A stretch of 64,000 nt of DNA from Longimicrobiales bacterium (GTDB lineage Bacteria; Gemmatimonadota; Gemmatimonadetes; Longimicrobiales; Gaopeijiaceae), in assembly GCA_965226375.1 (NCBI GenBank), contig CBDDCX010000006.1:512001-576000 (forward strand). The letters are read 5' to 3'. Under the pieces are notes generated by a model. It was not told the DNA's origin. It searched no databases and saw nothing but the letters and a program-made list of their open reading frames with translations. Positions within the stretch are counted from its first letter, which is position 1. The number at the start of each line of letters is the position of its first letter. Shown here piece after piece: positions 4,310 through 63,465 of the stretch. Both the position numbers and the translations under genes were made by a program.

Positions 4310-5360
4310 ATGGGGTATTGCCTTAAGTCCACCGCCCACTACATGTTGTGGTCATGGCGGTTCCGGCTTCTCAGCTCCGTGGCGGCGTGGACTATCCCCG
4401 TACGCGGCTGGAGTTGGACGAGTTCTTCCCCGACGATGCGGCATGCCTGGAGTACGTGGAGGGTCTGCGCTGGCCGGAAGGGTTTGTGTGCGTGGGCTGT
4501 GGCGGGTTGGGAGAGGTCTGGCGAGCATCGCGGGGGCGTCTCGTCTGCCCACACTGTCGAAGGCAGACCTCGGTGCTGGCGGGAACCGTGTTCCACCGCA
4601 CGCGCTCGCCCCTGCGTCTGTGGTTTCTCGCTGCCTGGGAGCTCACGAGCCAGAAATACGGAGCCAATGCTCTCGGGCTCCAGCGCGTGCTCGGACTGGG
4701 AAGCTACAAGACAGCGTGGGTCTGGCTCCACAAGCTCCGCCGGGCCATGGTCCGACCGGATCGCGACCAGCTGAGCGGCGTTGTGCAAGTGGACGAGAGC
4801 TATGTCGGGGGCGTGGAGGCTGGAGTGCGGGGCCGCGAGACGATCAAGAAGGCCATCGTCGCGATCGCCGCCGAGGTCGACGGACGCAAGATCGGGAGAA
4901 TACGGCTGCGTTGGGTGCCCGACCTCTCCGCTCCGGTTCTGCGAGGCTTCGTCAAGGATAGCATCGCACCGGCAAGCACGGTGCATACCGACGGATGGCC
5001 AAGCTATCAGGGACTCGCCAAACTGGGCTTTCGCCACACGGTCACGAACCTCTCGACCTCCGGCGATCCCGCTCACGTGCTCATGTCGGCCGTACATCGG
5101 GTGGCGTCTCTCCTCAAGCGCTGGGTCCTCGGAACCCTCCAAGGAGGGATCGCCCGCGAACACCTCCCCTACTATCTGGACGAGTTCACCTTTCGCTTCA
5201 ACCGACGCACATCCCGGGCTCGCGGCCTGTTGTTCTACCGCTTGCTTGAGCAGGCTGTTCAGTGTGCTCCCACGCCAGCTTCGGCCCTTTACCTCGGCAC
5301 CGGACGTGGGAAACGGCCCGCAGAGCCCCGGTAACCACTATTGGAGTGTGACGGGAATCG
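4310..5360 (+). mobile_element. IS1595-family insertion sequence, copy 1 (right end degenerate)
   Basis: Left end ATGGGGTATTGCCTTAAGTCCACC matches the other copies; matches copy 3 until 5341, then only a gapped remnant of the right inverted repeat. Confidence 0.9.
4348..5334 (+). CDS. IS1595-family transposase (ISSod11-like D-D-H type)
   Basis: Zn ribbon CVGC/CPHC, HTH region, [42 protein letters not shown]. Confidence 0.95.
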   Translation: MVMAVPASQLRGGVDYPRTRLELDEFFPDDAACLEYVEGLRWPEGFVCVGCGGLGEVWRASRGRLVCPHCRRQTSVLAGTVFHRTRSPLRLWFLAAWELTSQKYGANALGLQRVLGLGSYKTAWVWLHKLRRAMVRPDRDQLSGVVQVDESYVGGVEAGVRGRETIKKAIVAIAAEVDGRKIGRIRLRWVPDLSAPVLRGFVKDSIAPASTVHTDGWPSYQGLAKLGFRHTVTNLSTSGDPAHVLMSAVHRVASLLKRWVLGTLQGGIAREHLPYYLDEFTFRFNRRTSRARGLLFYRLLEQAVQCAPTPASALYLGTGRGKRPAEPR

Positions 5361-55137: not shown

Positions 55138-55497
55138 ATGGCCCAGAAGCCGAGGGAGAACAAGGCGACCGCAGGTCGTGAGAAGGTACCCGAGCGGTGG
55201 AGTGCCCAGCAGAAAACGGAGGTGGTGCTGCGCCTGCTACGGGGTGAGGACCTGGTGGAGGTCAGCCGCGAGGTACAGGTCTCACCGCCGGAGCTGGAGG
55301 AATGGCGGCGGGTGTTCCTGGAGACCGGTCAGCAGGGACTGAGACGCCGGGGCCGAGACCCTGGAGAACGGGAGCTGACCCGGACCCGGGCGAAGCTGGG
55401 AGAGTTGACGATGCGACTGGAGCTTGCGAGAGAACTCCTGGAAAAAAGGGGGTACGGGGACGAGCTGGAGAAGCTCTTGAAGCGCGGACGCGGGTGA
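55138..55497 (+). CDS. IS3-family OrfA (HTH)
   Basis: RWSAQQKTEVVLRLLRGEDL...LEEWRRVFL, then a leucine-zipper-like LGELTMRLEL. Confidence 0.85.
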   Translation: MAQKPRENKATAGREKVPERWSAQQKTEVVLRLLRGEDLVEVSREVQVSPPELEEWRRVFLETGQQGLRRRGRDPGERELTRTRAKLGELTMRLELARELLEKRGYGDELEKLLKRGRG

Positions 55498-56380
55498 GTC
55501 CGGGGACAGGGCGGCTCTACCCTCTGACGATGATCTGCGAGGTCTGGCGGGTGGGGCGCTCGACGGTCTACGCGGCCCGAGATCGAGAAGAGAGCGACGG
55601 GCCGGCAGGGCTGAAGAAGCGCGGACCGAAGACGAAGCTGAGCGACGAGGAGTTGGTGGAGGAGATCCGACAGGTGCTGAAGGAGAGCGACTTCCTGGGC
55701 GAAGGCCACCGGAAGGTCCGGGCCCGTCTGAGAGCCAAGGGGATCGGTGTGGGCAAGAACCGCGTGCTGCGGCTGATGCGGGAGAATGGGCTGCTGGCCC
55801 CCGTACGGCGCGGAAAGCACCCGCGTGGGGACCGGAGCCACAGCGGCCGGATCACGCGACGGATGTGCCGAACGAGCTGTGGGGTACGGACGCGACGCGG
55901 TTCTACACGAAGGAGGATGGGTGGTGCTGGTTCTTCGTGGCGGTGGATCACTGCATCACAGACGTGGTGGGCTGGCACGTGGCGAAGAAGGGCGATCGGT
56001 GGGCAGCGCTCGAGCCGATCCGCCAGGGTGTACGAACCCACATGGACGGCTACGCGCCCAAGATCGCTCTGGGGCTCGGCCTACGGCACGACTGGGGCCC
56101 TCAGTACACCGCCCATCAGTTCCAAGGAGAGCTGGCCTGGCTCGGGATCCGCTCGACGGCCTCGTACGTAGGAGAGCCGGAGTGCAACGGCGTCGCGGAA
56201 CGCTTCATGCGGACGCTGAAGGAAGAGTGCCTGTACCTCCACGACTTCGAGAGCCTCGAGGAGGCCAGGCAGGAGATCGATGCGTTCATCGAACGCTACA
56301 ACCGCGGGTGGCTCCTGGAGCGGCACGGGTATCGGACCCCGGCCCAGGTCCGTCAGGAGCTCACCCTGAAGGCGGCATGA
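55494..56380 (+). pseudogene. IS3-family OrfB DDE integrase core, frameshifted near 55857
   Basis: GHRKVRARL, NRVLRLMRE, then a frame change at ATCACGCGACGGATGTG before WGTDAT, VDHC, RHDWGPQY, NGVAERFMRTLKEE. Confidence 0.85.
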
Positions 56381-58153: not shown

Positions 58154-59302
58154 TCATGACCTCAACCTGGGGTCTAACGCGTCTCTCAGGCCATCTCCGA
58201 CCAGGTTGAACGCCACCACCGTGAAAACGATGGCGAGGCCCGGGAAGGTGGAGATCCACCAAGCGCCGAGCAGGTTGTCACGGCCGGCGGCCACCATCGA
58301 GCCCCACGAGGGGGTGGGCGGCTGGATCCCAATACCCAGAAAGGAAAGTCCGGCCTCGAGGATGATCACGTTACCTATGCCCAGAGTCGCGGCCACGATT
58401 ACGGGCGCCATGGTGTTGGGGATCACATGACGAAGGATGATGCGCGTCCGCGTGAAGCCTAAGGCGTGAGCCGCCTGAATGAATTCGCACTCCCGCAAGC
58501 TGAGCACTTCCCCCCGCACCAAGCGGGTGGTCCCGGGCCACTGTGTGAACCCGAGGACGGCAATGATCAAGAGGATGGAGGATTGATTGAAGAGGGCGAT
58601 GATCACGATGAGAAGCACGAGAGGCGGAAACGAGATGACCATGTCGACAAAGCGCATGACAACCGCGTCGACCTTTCCTCCCAGAAAGCCCGAGATCGCG
58701 CCCAGCAGTGTCCCGATGGTCACGCTGATCCCCACGGCTACGAACCCGATGGATAGGGAGATCCGCGCCCCGTAAAGGATGCGTGAGAACACATCGCGGG
58801 CCAGACCGTCCGTGCCGAGGGGAAAACCACCACCGGGGGCCAGCATCCTCTGAGTGGTCAGCGAGTTCTGGACCGTCGGATCGTGGGGAGAGATCAGGGG
58901 AGTAATCAGAGCTGTGAGGTATAGGCATGTAAGGATGATCAAGCCGACGACCGCAATCCGGTTCCGCCTGAAGGCCCGCACGGCCATGCTCCAGTGGCTG
59001 ACCCCTTCCTTACTCACGGATTCGGAGCGCGTCACGTCGCTCATCGACCACGCCCAGGCGACGAGAAGTCCGGCCACCACGGTCAGCGCCGCGAGGCGAT
59101 GATCCCCTGGACCTGCCCAAGCGGCTCGGAACCGGCCCGCCCGTGTCGCGAGCACACCCATGAAGCCGATCCACACCAGGAGGCTCATGGTTCCGACTCC
59201 CCAACGGCCAGCTAGAAGTTGGGGAAGTCCGGGCAACACCGCCGAGAGCGGCGCTCCTCCACGGCCTGGGCGCGGCGGACGGTTTACCGCGGGATCAGTC
59301 AT
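58154..59302 (-). CDS. Oligopeptide ABC permease (OppC/DppC-type) with an N-terminal extension
   Basis: [46 protein letters not shown]. Confidence 0.92.
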
Positions 59303-59755
59303 ACCGGATCCTCGGGTCCACCACGGCATAGAGCAGATCCGCGATCAGGTTACCGATCACGACCATATTGCCGAAGATGAGGCTCCCGCCCATGATCACC
59401 GGATAGTCCCGCTGTGAGATGCCGTCGACGATCAGCTTGCCCATCCCCGGCCAGGCAAAGACCCACTCGATGAACACAGTCCCACTGAAGAGAAAGGGAA
59501 GGTAGAGCCCAAGCAGCGTGATGACCGGAATGAGCCCGTTGCGCAGTGCGTGCTTCATGACGACCACCGGCTCGGAGAGCCCCTTGGCGCGAGCCGTCCG
59601 AACGAAGTCCTGGCGGATCACCTCCAACATGCTGCCGCGAGTGAATCGCGCAATTCCGGCCGCCAGCACCAGGGACAGCGAAGTGGCCGGAAGCGCCAGG
59701 TGCATGAACCTGTCCTGCACCTTCTGCAGTGGAGACATGAACGGGTATTGGGCCA

Positions 59756-60802
59756 ATGGGGTATTGCCTTAAGTCCACCGCCCACTACATGTTGTGGTCA
59801 TGGCGGTTCCGGCTTCTCAGCTCCGTGGCGGCGTGGACTATCCCCGTACGCGGCTGGAGTTGGACGAGTTCTTCCCCGACGATGCGGCATGCCTGGAGTA
59901 CGTGGAGGGTCTGCGCTGGCCGGAAGGGTTTGTGTGCGTGGGCTGTGGCGGGTTGGGAGAGGTCTGGCGAGCATCGCGGGGGCGTCTCGTCTGCCCACAC
60001 TGTCGAAGGCAGACCTCGGTGCTGGCGGGAACCGTGTTCCACCGCACGCGCTCGCCCCTGCGTCTGTGGTTTCTCGCTGCCTGGGAGCTCACGAGCCAGA
60101 AATACGGAGCCAATGCTCTCGGGCTCCAGCGCGTGCTCGGACTGGGAAGCTACAAGACAGCGTGGGTCTGGCTCCACAAGCTCCGCCGGGCCATGGTCCG
60201 ACCGGATCGCGACCAGCTGAGCGGCGTTGTGCAAGTGGACGAGAGCTATGTCGGGGGCGTGGAGGCTGGAGTGCGGGGCCGCGAGACGATCAAGAAGGCC
60301 ATCGTCGCGATCGCCGCCGAGGTCGACGGACGCAAGATCGGGAGAATACGGCTGCGTTGGGTGCCCGACCTCTCCGCTCCGGTTCTGCGAGGCTTCGTCA
60401 AGGATAGCATCGCACCGGCAAGCACGGTGCATACCGACGGATGGCCAAGCTATCAGGGACTCGCCAAACTGGGCTTTCGCCACACGGTCACGAACCTCTC
60501 GACCTCCGGCGATCCCGCTCACGTGCTCATGTCGGCCGTACATCGGGTGGCGTCTCTCCTCAAGCGCTGGGTCCTCGGAACCCTCCAAGGAGGGATCGCC
60601 CGCGAACACCTCCCCTACTATCTGGACGAGTTCACCTTTCGCTTCAACCGACGCACATCCCGGGCTCGCGGCCTGTTGTTCTACCGCTTGCTTGAGCAGG
60701 CTGTTCAGTGTGCTCCCACGCCAGCTTCGGCCCTTTACCTCGGCACCGGACGTGGGAAACGGCCCGCAGAGCCCCGGTAACCACTATATCTTGGGGTCGG
60801 TG
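59756..60802 (+). mobile_element. IS1595-family element, copy 2 (right inverted repeat truncated)
   Basis: Matches copy 3 up to ...TTGGGGTCGGTG at 60802. Confidence 0.9.
59794..60780 (+). CDS. IS1595-family transposase, copy 2
   Basis: Protein identical to 4348-5334. Confidence 0.95.
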   Translation: MVMAVPASQLRGGVDYPRTRLELDEFFPDDAACLEYVEGLRWPEGFVCVGCGGLGEVWRASRGRLVCPHCRRQTSVLAGTVFHRTRSPLRLWFLAAWELTSQKYGANALGLQRVLGLGSYKTAWVWLHKLRRAMVRPDRDQLSGVVQVDESYVGGVEAGVRGRETIKKAIVAIAAEVDGRKIGRIRLRWVPDLSAPVLRGFVKDSIAPASTVHTDGWPSYQGLAKLGFRHTVTNLSTSGDPAHVLMSAVHRVASLLKRWVLGTLQGGIAREHLPYYLDEFTFRFNRRTSRARGLLFYRLLEQAVQCAPTPASALYLGTGRGKRPAEPR

Positions 60803-60820
60803 TCTTCTGATGTCGTTGGG

Positions 60821-60890
60821 ATGGAGAAGGGCTCCGGGATCGTTGTGTGCCCGTACAATGAGGCTTGGCCGCTCGAGTTCGAGCGAGTTC
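60821..60890 (+). pseudogene. 5' fragment of a GrpB/UPF0157-like gene
   Basis: MEKGSGIVVCPYNEAWPLEFERV resembles the GrpB N-terminal IxVVPYDPxWPxxF motif. Confidence 0.55.
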
Positions 60891-61163
60891 GTATTGCCTT
60901 AAGTCCACCGCCCACTACATGTTGTGGTCATGGCGGTTCCGGCTTCTCAGCTCCGTGGCGGCGTGGACTATCCCCGTACGCGGCTGGAGACTGGACGAGT
61001 TCTTCCCCGACGATGCGGCATGCCTGGAGTACGTGGAGGGTCTGCGCTGGCCGGAAGGGTTTGTGTGCGTGGGCTGTGGCGGGTTGGGAGAGGTCTGGCG
61101 AGCATCGCGGGGGCGTCTCGTCTGCCCACACTGTCGAAGGCAGACCTCGGTGCTGGCGGGAAC
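60891..61163 (+). mobile_element. Partial IS1595 copy (left about 270 bp, lacking the first 5 bp)
   Basis: Matches the element left end apart from GAGAC versus GAGT near 60989. Confidence 0.9.
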
Positions 61164-61819
61164 GGCGTGTTCCACGTCATCGGGCCACCGTAGATCGTGC
61201 TGACCGGGTGCAGGCGGAACTCGAAGTCGGTCACGACACCGAAGTTGCCGCCGCCGCCGCGAAGCGCCCAGAAGAGGTCGGCGTTGTCGTCTTCGCTCGC
61301 GTGCACGAGCTCGCCGTTCCCGGTCACGACGTCCGCGGAGATGAGATTGTCGATCGAGAGCCCGTGCCCGCGCGTGAGGTACCCGATGCCGCCGCCGAGG
61401 GTGAGGCCGCCGATGCCGGTGGTTGACACGACGCCGCCCACGGTCGCTAGACCGAATGCGTGGGTCGCGTGGTCGAGGTCGCCCCATAGGCAGCCGCCTT
61501 GGGCGCGGGCGGACTTATTGCGCGGATCGACGCGCGTCCCCCGCATCGACGACAGATCGAGGACCACGCCGCCATCGTTCGTTCCGAACCCGGGCACGCT
61601 GTGCGAGCCACCTCGGATCGACAGGTCCGCGCCCGTCTCCCCGGCGAAACGCACTACAGATATGACGTCCGCCTGATCCGAAGTACGGACGATCGCCTTC
61701 GGGCGCTTGTCGATCATCCCGTTGTAGACCCTGCGCGCCTCTTCGTAACGGTCGTCGTTTTCGGTGATGACCTCTCCGCGCACCTGCTCGCTCAGACTCT
61801 CGATCGTCGCTTTGCTCAT
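61164..61819 (-). pseudogene. 5' half of an FAD-binding (BBE/6-hydroxy-D-nicotine oxidase-like) oxidoreductase
   Basis: [45 protein letters not shown]; truncated by the partial IS. Confidence 0.88.
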
Positions 61820-61845
61820 ATGGGGTATTGCCTTAAGTCCACCGC

Positions 61846-61861
61846 CCACTACATGTTGTGG
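61846..61861. promoter_or_regulatory. NrdR-box-like palindrome in the IS left end (also at 4336, 59782, 60912)
   Basis: CCACTACATGTTGTGG fits all strongly conserved positions of acaCwAtATaTwGtgt. Confidence 0.6.
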
Positions 61862-62844
61862 TCATGGCGGTTCCGGCTTCTCAGCTCCGTGGCGGCGTGG
61901 ACTATCCCCGTACGCGGCTGGAGTTGGACGAGTTCTTCCCCGACGATGCGGCATGCCTGGAGTACGTGGAGGGTCTGCGCTGGCCGGAAGGGTTTGTGTG
62001 CGTGGGCTGTGGCGGGTTGGGAGAGGTCTGGCGAGCATCGCGGGGGCGTCTCGTCTGCCCACACTGTCGAAGGCAGACCTCGGTGCTGGCGGGAACCGTG
62101 TTCCACCGCACGCGCTCGCCCCTGCGTCTGTGGTTTCTCGCTGCCTGGGAGCTCACGAGCCAGAAATACGGAGCCAATGCTCTCGGGCTCCAGCGCGTGC
62201 TCGGACTGGGAAGCTACAAGACAGCGTGGGTCTGGCTCCACAAGCTCCGCCGGGCCATGGTCCGACCGGATCGCGACCAGCTGAGCGGCGTTGTGCAAGT
62301 GGACGAGAGCTATGTCGGGGGCGTGGAGGCTGGAGTGCGGGGCCGCGAGACGATCAAGAAGGCCATCGTCGCGATCGCCGCCGAGGTCGACGGACGCAAG
62401 ATCGGGAGAATACGGCTGCGTTGGGTGCCCGACCTCTCCGCTCCGGTTCTGCGAGGCTTCGTCAAGGATAGCATCGCACCGGCAAGCACGGTGCATACCG
62501 ACGGATGGCCAAGCTATCAGGGACTCGCCAAACTGGGCTTTCGCCACACGGTCACGAACCTCTCGACCTCCGGCGATCCCGCTCACGTGCTCATGTCGGC
62601 CGTACATCGGGTGGCGTCTCTCCTCAAGCGCTGGGTCCTCGGAACCCTCCAAGGAGGGATCGCCCGCGAACACCTCCCCTACTATCTGGACGAGTTCACC
62701 TTTCGCTTCAACCGACGCACATCCCGGGCTCGCGGCCTGTTGTTCTACCGCTTGCTTGAGCAGGCTGTTCAGTGTGCTCCCACGCCAGCTTCGGCCCTTT
62801 ACCTCGGCACCGGACGTGGGAAACGGCCCGCAGAGCCCCGGTAA
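61858..62844 (+). CDS. IS1595-family transposase, copy 3
   Basis: Protein identical to the other two full copies. Confidence 0.95.
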
Positions 62845-62860
62845 CCACTATATCTTGGGG
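62845..62860. promoter_or_regulatory. NrdR-box-like palindrome in the IS right end (also at 60781)
   Basis: CCACTATATCTTGGGG fits all strongly conserved positions of the NrdR box consensus. Confidence 0.6.
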
Positions 62861-63465
62861 TCGGTGGACTTAAGGGAATACCCCCTTAGGGCCAAGTCCA
62901 CGATGCCGGACGCCGGAAACCAAATGGGCCACTCCCATACGTTTCGAGCGAATAGGCTGAAGGTGAGGATCATCATCAACGCGAGCCAGAACGACGGCAT
63001 CGAATAGAAGAACAGGGCCAAGACCGACGACACGTTGTCGAGGATGGAATACTGCCGGACGGCCTGGATGACTCCGAGGCAGATCCCGAGGATGAAGGCG
63101 ATCACGACGGCCGTTCCGGACAGGAGCAACGTATTCGGCAGGATCTCCTTGATGATGTCGCGGACCGGTCGGTTCTCCGAGAAGGAGTATCCCAAGTCTC
63201 CTTTCGCCAAGGCCCCCATCCACTTCACATAGCGGACGTGGACCGGACGGTCGAGACCCATGTTCACCCGGATCTGTTCGACGGTCTCGGCAGAGAGGCT
63301 GGGACTGACGTATCTGAGCGCCGGATCTCCGGGCGCCAGGTTTACGACGAAGAAGAGAATTGTGGCCACCCCGAGTACGAGCGGGATCACCCCGAGGAGT
63401 CTTCGCCCGATGTACCGGGTCACGCGGCGTGCTCCCGGGTCAACACGACCTCGGTCGACAGGACA

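What the first reader, a model, noticed from the sequence alone, without database searches (positions are those of the whole stretch)
61820..62886. IS1595 element with an NrdR-box-like operator in both terminal repeats: possible dNTP-sensing control of transposition
Seen: each end has a 16-bp palindrome starting exactly 27 nt from the tip, CCACTACATGTTGTGG on the left (61846-61861) and CCACTATATCTTGGGG on the right (62845-62860). The two ends differ at several positions inside this box, yet both keep C-w-A-n-A-T-n-T-w-G. The left box covers the putative -10 (TTGCCT-N18-CATGTT) and the GTG start, 2 nt before the ATG; the right box begins immediately after the stop codon. Established: this pattern is the NrdR box (acaCwAtATaTwGtgt), bound by the ATP/dATP-sensing repressor of ribonucleotide reductase genes, normally as paired boxes. 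Inference: the IS may recruit host NrdR to repress a leaderless transposase transcript and/or bridge or occlude both ends, tying transposition to dNTP status or replication stress. I know of no description of NrdR as an IS host factor but cannot check the literature.
Basis: partly seen in the sequence, partly recalled or inferred. Interest (0 to 1): 0.88.

Follow-up and report, generated by a model that had tools for sequence, protein, structure and literature searches.

The report
Jumping gene carrying NrdR repressor sites
This jumping gene and many of its relatives carry, just inside both ends, a close copy of the DNA site bound by the bacterial repressor that senses DNA building blocks, and the site was missing in hosts where no gene for that repressor was found, which suggests, without binding data yet, that jumping is tied to the cell's DNA-precursor supply.

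Summary
Observation confirmed. The 1,067-bp IS1595 element (38 full copies in the genome) has one 16-bp box at nt 27-42 of each end. The host has nrdR and a canonical box pair at nrdJ; the IS boxes match its box 1 at 14 and 15 of 16 bases. Among 80 related elements with both ends, 29 have the box at both, 47 at neither, 4 at one; its conservation profile follows RNR-promoter boxes (r 0.91-0.93), while left and right differ at positions NrdR ignores. The box switches state at least 14 times on the transposase tree with no transposase residue tracking it. It tracks host nrdR: 10 of 19 elements in NrdR hosts, 0 of 13 in Spirochaetota without an nrdR match (p 0.0014; strict recount 9/18 vs 2/16, p 0.023). 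Against: no second box at the spacing NrdR needs, single boxes are not bound in vitro, hosts are MAGs, no binding data. Best reading: a split NrdR operator, one half per end, braking transposition when dATP is high. The scan saw this motif twice before on other genomes (one note favoured the transposase); the nrdR-tracking and tree tests are new here.

The parts
61820..62886 (+). IS1595-family insertion sequence, 1,067 bp
   Evidence: PF12762 + PF12760, NF033547 189 bits; 38 full copies, 23 with 8-bp TSD
61820..61845 (+). left terminal inverted repeat (26 bp), present in box-bearing and box-less relatives alike
   Evidence: 23 of 26 identical to right end; left-right identity mostly 83-100% at nt 1-23 in both classes, falling to about chance after nt 25 in box-less elements
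61846..61861 (.). left NrdR-type box (nt 27-42), over the transposase -10 region and GTG
   Evidence: 20.2 bits; 14 of 16 to host nrdJ box 1
61828..61857 (+). candidate transposase promoter (TTGCCT-N18-CATGTT); inferred only
   Evidence: sequence; TTG at nt 9-11 is left-end-specific here and in L106; not found by consensus scan
61858..62844 (+). transposase ORF, 328 aa from GTG (ATG at 61864); Zn ribbon plus DDE domain
62845..62860 (.). right NrdR-type box (nt 27-42 from right tip), directly after the stop codon
   Evidence: 16.6 bits; 15 of 16 to host nrdJ box 1
62861..62886 (-). right terminal inverted repeat (26 bp)
59756..60802 (+). second copy of the IS (nt 1-1047, right tip missing), boxes at 59782-59797 and 60781-60796
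   Evidence: 100% over 1047 bp
60891..61175 (+). partial third copy (nt 6-287) with left box at 60912-60927
4310..5341 (+). further copy in the window (nt 1-1032), cut inside the right box

Best explanation
The 16-mers are binding sites for the host repressor NrdR, kept by selection in a large, scattered subset of IS1595 elements (shown: sequence, position, profile, distribution; inferred: binding). Each end carries half of the two-box operator that an NrdR tetramer needs, so the working operator forms only when the ends come together: a ~1-kb loop in the integrated element, the transposase-paired ends, or a circle junction (inferred). With dATP+ATP bound (dNTPs plentiful, synthesis not drawing them down) NrdR would cover the transposase -10 in the left box and kink the DNA next to both 26-bp repeats, damping transposition; when dATP falls it lets go, together with the nrdJ promoter, so the element moves when DNA is being made or under dNTP stress (inferred from the known NrdR cycle). 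I put NrdR binding in some form at about 0.77 and this braking version at 0.62.
For: Host has nrdR and one RNR, class II nrdJ, with a box pair at 16-bp spacing whose box 1 matches the IS boxes at 15 and 14 of 16. Matrix from 24 boxes of 12 RNR promoters: 32 of 88 left and 36 of 90 right ends of related elements score >=8 bits at nt 27, versus 0-4 at each other offset from 21 to 60. Both ends go together: 29 both, 1 left only, 3 right only, 47 neither; in phylogenetically independent pairs 7.7 of 10 same way, about 0 opposite, median p 0.008. Non-circular test (select on one end, profile the other): r 0.93 and 0.91 with RNR boxes; C4, A6, G13 at 97-100%, T11 97-100%. Left versus right identity is 100/100/93/96% at positions 4/6/11/13 but 33/16/50/16% at 5/7/10/12, so it is not a homogenised repeat, and NrdR needs 4, 6, 11, 13 and ignores 3, 7, 10, 14 in vitro (PMC13584703). 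At least 14 changes of state on a 79-row tree (10-13 forced by starred branches); best single transposase residue predicts the box in 69% of 64 rows, baseline 53%. Host test: 10 of 19 elements in NrdR hosts against 0 of 13 in Spirochaetota genomes with no nrdR match, p 0.0014; Spirochaetota alone 3 of 5 vs 0 of 13, p 0.012. Two late elements fit the prediction (G587 nrdR+, 18.2/16.9 bits; G641 no nrdR, -15.4). In the class of G109 (0 of 16 tested with nrdR) two elements carry eroded boxes (5.4/7.9 and -0.5/3.1 bits). Family -10 (TAnnnT at nt 37-42) lies in the box: 19 of 32 box-bearing and 18 of 43 box-less left ends, 2 of 36 and 0 of 40 right ends. The tetramer has two DNA sites 80 A apart and kinks each box about 90 degrees (PMC9110341); a single box works in vivo at P. 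aeruginosa topA (PMC4409342).
Against: No second box at 14-17 or 24-27 bp inward at any box-bearing end, and 1 of 36 at one outward spacing. E. coli NrdR did not bind 26-bp single-box oligos (PMC13584703), a setting in which bridging in trans was possible. An 8-bp junction puts the boxes 60 bp apart, outside the 12-27 bp tested (PMC12051234); seen junction gaps are 8, 12, 20, 30. Box-to-box distances (922-1082 bp, n 29) show no helical phasing at 10.4-10.6 bp (p 0.21; 0.039 at 11.1, one of five periods tried). Two box-bearing elements lie in MAGs with no nrdR match: L019 (G005; counted as NrdR host because its RNR promoter has a box pair) and L027 (G013, phylum with nrdR in 2 of 31; set aside as probably misbinned because its 1,481-bp contig ends a second, different ftsZ). 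Counted strictly by nrdR hit it is 9 of 18 vs 2 of 16, p 0.023. The 13 negatives are about 8 lineages (p 0.011), 5-6 on long contigs (p 0.03-0.05); Spirochaetota on long contigs only 2 of 4 vs 0 of 10, p 0.066. Half of the elements in NrdR hosts lack the box. The topA precedent is activation, not repression. No circle junction was seen in contigs of 4 runs. No binding, expression or transposition data.
Confidence: 0.62

Rival explanations
1. NrdR binds, but as an architectural helper: by kinking and bridging the two ends it promotes synapsis or circle formation when dNTPs are plentiful for gap filling, so transposition falls, not rises, without NrdR.
For: Same distribution evidence; strict offset of 26 bp from each tip and paired gain or loss suit a structural role; right box has no promoter to repress; NrdR activates topA through one box (PMC4409342); an IS1595 member forms circles (ISApl4, inverse PCR, PMC12561309).
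Against: Left box covers the transposase -10; 47 of 80 elements do without it, including multicopy ones such as L217/L228, so it is not needed for synapsis.
Confidence: 0.15
3. Another host protein with a like motif binds there, or the site is a bendable AT-rich spacer shaped by the -10 on the left and by selection against an antisense -10 on the right.
For: -10 geometry at nt 37-42 is family-wide and the right end avoids it, which explains part of the left-right asymmetry; nrdR absence may co-occur with loss of other regulators.
Against: Box-less left ends keep the -10 without the palindrome (18 of 43); the right box keeps C4, A6, T11, G13 at 97-100% with no promoter constraint; 15 of 16 match to the host's own nrdJ operator.
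Confidence: 0.08
4. Chance resemblance or assembly artefact.
For: The assembly has noise (scrambled copies at C8:11.5-15 kb).
Against: Same ends in 46 left-anchored rows in this genome, in another genome with a 100% identical transposase and in contigs of 4 runs; about 3 chance sites per 4.2 Mb at this score.
Confidence: 0.01

Closest known systems
NrdR operators of ribonucleotide reductase promoters (PMC13584703, PMC12051234, PMC9110341)
   Same: 16-bp box with C4, A6, A8, T9, T11, G13; AT-rich core (75% and 88%); overlap with a -10; near identity to the host's own nrdJ box.
   Different: One box per site, partner about 1 kb away (or 60 bp across an 8-bp junction) instead of 15-16 or 25-26 bp; controls a transposase, not an RNR; binding untested.
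Single NrdR box at P. aeruginosa topA (PMC4409342)
   Same: Lone box at a non-RNR gene of DNA metabolism, with in vivo effect of box mutation reported.
   Different: There NrdR activates, and there is no paired second site at another DNA end.
IS1595 family, probably ISSod11 group (ISCsp2, ISRama1, ISAcr1 as named in the plasmid records)
   Same: Single Zn-ribbon/DDE transposase, short TIRs, 8-bp TSD; 52% identity to ISCsp2 and ISRama1, 43% to ISAcr1. ISAcr1 has the box at both ends (17/16 bits).
   Different: No internal host-operator module found described in the searched papers; ISCsp2 and ISRama1 lack the NrdR box and have LexA-like sites instead.
Host-factor control of IS ends: IHF, HU, FIS, H-NS, DnaA, LexA, Dam, GTP (list in PMC8944449; IS10/Dam and IS50/DnaA details recalled, not from a call)
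   Same: Host DNA-binding protein site at a fixed place inside IS ends that links transposition to cell state.
   Different: NrdR is not in that list (0 mentions in PMC8944449); the signal would be the dATP/ATP ratio, and the operator would be split between the two ends.

Membership tests
IS1595 family | DDE_Tnp_IS1595 catalytic domain | tested here: met
   PF12762 E 2e-29; NF033547 189 bits over cutoff 75
IS1595 family | N-terminal zinc ribbon, single transposase gene | tested here: met
   PF12760 E 9e-12; one 328-aa ORF; features as listed in PMC8101967
IS1595 family | Terminal inverted repeats and 8-bp target duplication | tested here: met
   23 of 26 bp; 8-bp TSD at 23 of 38 full copies, not at this copy
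ISSod11 group | Clusters with ISfinder ISSod11-group transposases | tested here: inconclusive
   52% to ISCsp2 in a S. herbicidovorans record whose IS1595 elements PMC5737581 calls ISSod11 subgroup; ISfinder references not available
NrdR operator | Box with C4, A6, A8, T9, T11, G13 | tested here: met
   6 of 6 in both boxes; 20.2 and 16.6 bits vs 0.2-19.4 for held-out RNR boxes
NrdR operator | At least 63% AT between C4 and G13 | tested here: met
   75% and 88% (rule from PMC13584703)
NrdR operator | Second box at 15-16 (or 24-27) bp | tested here: not met
   0 of 19-36 ends per spacing inward; 1 of 36 at one outward spacing. It is therefore not filed as a canonical operator
NrdR operator | Host encodes NrdR with a working regulon | tested here: met
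   TIGR00244 173 bits; paired boxes upstream of nrdJ
NrdR operator | Overlaps the RNA polymerase site | tested here: inconclusive
   family -10 at nt 37-42; this element's promoter weak and unmapped
NrdR operator | dATP/ATP-dependent binding and repression | not testable with these tools
   needs MST/EMSA, ChIP, reporter

The most novel reading that the evidence does not exclude
A widespread IS1595 lineage carries a split NrdR operator, one box per end, that an NrdR tetramer completes by bridging the ends over about 1 kb or in the transpososome or circle, so the element reads the host dATP/ATP ratio directly; sister lineages swapped this module for LexA sites or LexA-box targets, making the family a set of transposons plugged into interchangeable DNA-stress regulators. 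With some 90 boxes against one native pair, this genome's IS load could also titrate NrdR.
Probability: 0.45. Interest if true: 0.92.

Novelty: new variant of a known kind. Interest (0 to 1): 0.8.

Why it matters
NrdR is regarded as an almost RNR-only repressor that needs two boxes 15-16 bp apart. A role at transposon ends would add a new host factor for transposition, a new signal (dNTP pools) and a new binding geometry for NrdR. It is directly testable: NrdR proteins bind foreign boxes (PMC13584703), and a named element of a culturable host (ISAcr1, Acidiphilium) has the same boxes. It predicts that hydroxyurea or replication bursts change the mobility of these elements, and that heavy IS loads could disturb RNR control.

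Tried and rejected
Second box near either end: none. NrdR boxes at insertion targets: best score 2.4 bits in 23 targets, so no box-guided targeting. Circle junction in public data: none in contigs of 4 of the 24 listed runs; contigs drop rare forms, so no evidence either way; the RNA runs laid were contigs and cannot show start or strand. Helical phasing of the two boxes: not significant. RNR-promoter check in Spirochaetota as a second measure of NrdR status: the nrdR-positive control G313 showed no pair either, so it is uninformative; 5 Eisenbacteria genomes gave no class I/II RNR match. Single-protein search of 251 Spirochaetota found 3 genomes; the 401-genome alignment search added 13 genomes (1 of 13 with nrdR) whose 16 loci are distant IS1595 types (24-34% identity) without this terminal repeat, left out of the host count. 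Also left out: L224 (looks like ISCsp2, likely contaminant), a MITE in L219, L223 and L226 (no ends found), L252 (no end found), L027 (see above), duplicates L228, L028, L032, L034, and the 18 plasmid loci and all metagenome and viral loci (host nrdR not tested). One search repeated (same 20 genomes). Three other IS1595 hits in G000 have neither this repeat nor a box. The careful tree did not finish; quick and FastTree trees were used. No structure or complex prediction was run: the claim concerns protein-DNA binding. Literature searches that found no link of NrdR to insertion sequences in titles or abstract starts; none for LexA box + IS1595; the library lacks most subscription journals. PMC4989314 and PMC5343134 passages added nothing.

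Full report
1. Observation. The element runs 61820-62886 and encodes a 328-aa IS1595 transposase (PF12760, PF12762, NF033547). The genome holds 46 left-anchored ends and 3 unpaired right ends; 38 copies are full, 23 of them with an 8-bp duplication, which fixes the tips; contigs of 4 public runs end at the same bases. The two 16-mers lie at nt 27-42 from each tip. The outer 26 bp match at 23 positions, the boxes at 11 of 16. The closest other genome with a 100% identical transposase is a Longimicrobiales MAG; the best-holding run is labelled sponge metagenome and may be the source of this DNA.

2. Is it an NrdR box by sequence? G000 encodes NrdR and one RNR found, a class II nrdJ (genome 90% complete). 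Upstream of nrdJ is a canonical pair with a 16-bp spacer; box 1 matches the right IS box at 15 and the left at 14 of 16. I collected 12 pairs from 26 RNR loci and built a matrix; without the two Longimicrobiales-type promoters it scores the IS boxes 20.2 and 16.6 bits, against 0.2-19.4 for held-out RNR boxes. Only 4 non-IS positions of 4.2 million reach 16.55 bits, one being nrdJ box 1.

3. Relatives. 126 loci from genomes, plasmids, metagenomes and viral contigs (of the 79 loci one per element type was used) fell into 101 clusters at 85% identity; 98 had an end, 80 both. At nt 27, 32 of 88 left and 36 of 90 right ends score 8 bits or more; every other offset from 21 to 60 has 0-4. Both ends 29, left only 1, right only 3, neither 47. 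Selecting on one end and profiling the other gives r 0.93 and 0.91 with the RNR profile. Between the two ends of one element, positions 4, 6, 11, 13 are 100, 100, 93, 96% identical, positions 5, 7, 10, 12 only 33, 16, 50, 16%. The first four are those NrdR needs in vitro, while 7 and 10 are ignored and 5 and 12 matter only through AT content (PMC13584703). So the box is held by selection on a palindromic motif, not copied as part of the repeat. In box-less elements left-right identity ends at nt 24-25, showing that 26 bp suffice as terminal repeat.

4. Transposase or host? On a 79-row tree the state changes at least 14 times (10-13 forced by starred branches); left and right change together in 7.7 of 10 independent pairs, about 0 against (p 0.008). 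Relatives at 62-67% identity lack the box, ISAcr1 at 43% has it. No alignment column predicts it better than 69% (baseline 53%), and the transposase N-terminus does not align with NrdR. Spirochaetota gave a natural experiment because nrdR is patchy there (18 of 35 tested in one order, 0 of 16 in another). Elements in genomes with nrdR: L218, L221, L264 have both boxes, L222 and L229 none. Elements in genomes with no match: 0 of 13, two with eroded boxes. The last two elements were found after the pattern was noted and both fit. With other phyla: 10 of 19 vs 0 of 13, p 0.0014; 8 lineages p 0.011; long contigs only p 0.03-0.05.

5. The problem of the single box. No end has a partner box at 14-17 or 24-27 bp inward, and 1 of 36 at one outward spacing; targets hold none. 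E. coli NrdR did not bind single-box oligos (PMC13584703) and prefers 15-17 or 24-27 bp spacers (PMC12051234). So this is not a canonical operator. Two facts keep NrdR in play: a lone box acts in vivo at P. aeruginosa topA (PMC4409342), and the tetramer has two separate DNA sites 80 A apart (PMC9110341). Paired retention and paired loss at both ends is what a two-box protein would impose if the ends supply the pair. Geometry is unresolved: an 8-bp junction gives a 60-bp spacer, no junction was seen in reads, and box-to-box distances are not phased.

6. Mechanism. Shown: position, profile, paired distribution, association with nrdR, overlap with the family -10 (TTGACT at nt 14-19, TAnnnT at 37-42 in 19 of 32 box-bearing and 18 of 43 box-less left ends, nearly absent on the right). 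Inferred: NrdR-dATP/ATP bridges the two boxes, blocks the promoter and kinks DNA beside both repeats; release when dATP falls licenses transposition along with RNR expression (0.62). A stimulating, synapsis-helping role (0.15), a transposase site (0.12) or another factor (0.08) remain.

7. Side evidence. Several box-less clades appear tied to LexA instead: ISRama1 and ISCsp2 have CTG-N10-CAG inside their ends, and 3 of 3 betaproteobacterial-type elements whose two flanks I rebuilt (L091, L096, L186) sit in the centre of such a site. The LexA motif is recalled, not from a call, and no statistics were run.

8. Known and new. IS1595 membership is met; ISSod11 group is likely, not tested against ISfinder. 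Host-factor control of IS ends is known (list in PMC8944449, without NrdR). Searches returned no paper linking NrdR to IS ends by title or abstract start; the library is incomplete. The scan noted the same motif on two other genomes (e1-6781107, e1-7063397); these are unchecked notes, not support. The first favoured the transposase, which the tree and host tests here argue against.

9. Papers seen. PMC13584703: parts 1-3 of 4 of the main text; its appendix figure with the single-box data was not seen and bears on section 5. Passages only: PMC12051234, PMC9110341, PMC4409342, PMC12561309, PMC5737581, PMC8101967, PMC8944449, PMC4989314, PMC5343134. No supplements were read. All other papers: search listings only. 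IS10/Dam and IS50/DnaA are recalled.

10. Verdict. Real and not chance; a new variant of host-regulated insertion sequences, with good comparative evidence for NrdR and no binding data. Interest 0.8.

Noticed in passing
L091, L096, L186 flanks (also L089, L092, L188 one flank); L023, L088, L173, L180 flanks: Box-less relatives are inserted in the centre of LexA-like sites: CTG-N10-CAG in three betaproteobacterial-type elements, with the 8-bp duplication as the core; GAAC-N4-GT-like flanks in actinobacterial-type ones. LexA motifs recalled.
   Followed up: partly
L091 and L092/L189, about nt 36-55 from the tips: ISRama1 and ISCsp2 carry CTG-N10-CAG inside their ends in place of the NrdR box.
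   Followed up: partly
window 59295-63423: An ABC permease gene (- strand) is split by a 3.1-kb block of one full IS, two partial copies, 88 bp of unique DNA and the 5' part of an FAD-oxidase gene; the block's outer flanks match at 7 of 8 bases, as for a composite insertion or rearrangement. One public run has the FAD gene without the IS.
   Followed up: partly
G000:C8:11500-15100: Four scrambled, error-rich copies of the IS in alternating orientation; looks like a long-read consensus artefact.
   Followed up: no
G000 C7:207697, C8:194156, C8:1268407, C8:1930300, C8:2231468: Five copies sit in the same 8-bp target within a repeated flanking sequence, in both orientations: a hotspot inside another repeat.
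   Followed up: no
G000:C5:241215-243356: Tandem head-to-tail pair separated by one 8-bp target copy; boxes 60 bp apart across the junction.
   Followed up: partly
L175 right end: Strong box (20.5 bits) at nt 37 instead of 27, a shift of about one helical turn; single case.
   Followed up: no
G000 C4:33145, C6:329716, C8:1650666: Three lone box-like sites of 16.9-17.9 bits outside IS ends; probably chance, the last just after a stop codon.
   Followed up: partly
window 55302-56380: Another insertion sequence with an rve integrase core truncates an ABC ATPase gene.
   Followed up: no
L251 (G013:C29:1-1481): Contig carries the end of an ftsZ unlike the MAG's own ftsZ; probably misbinned.
   Followed up: yes
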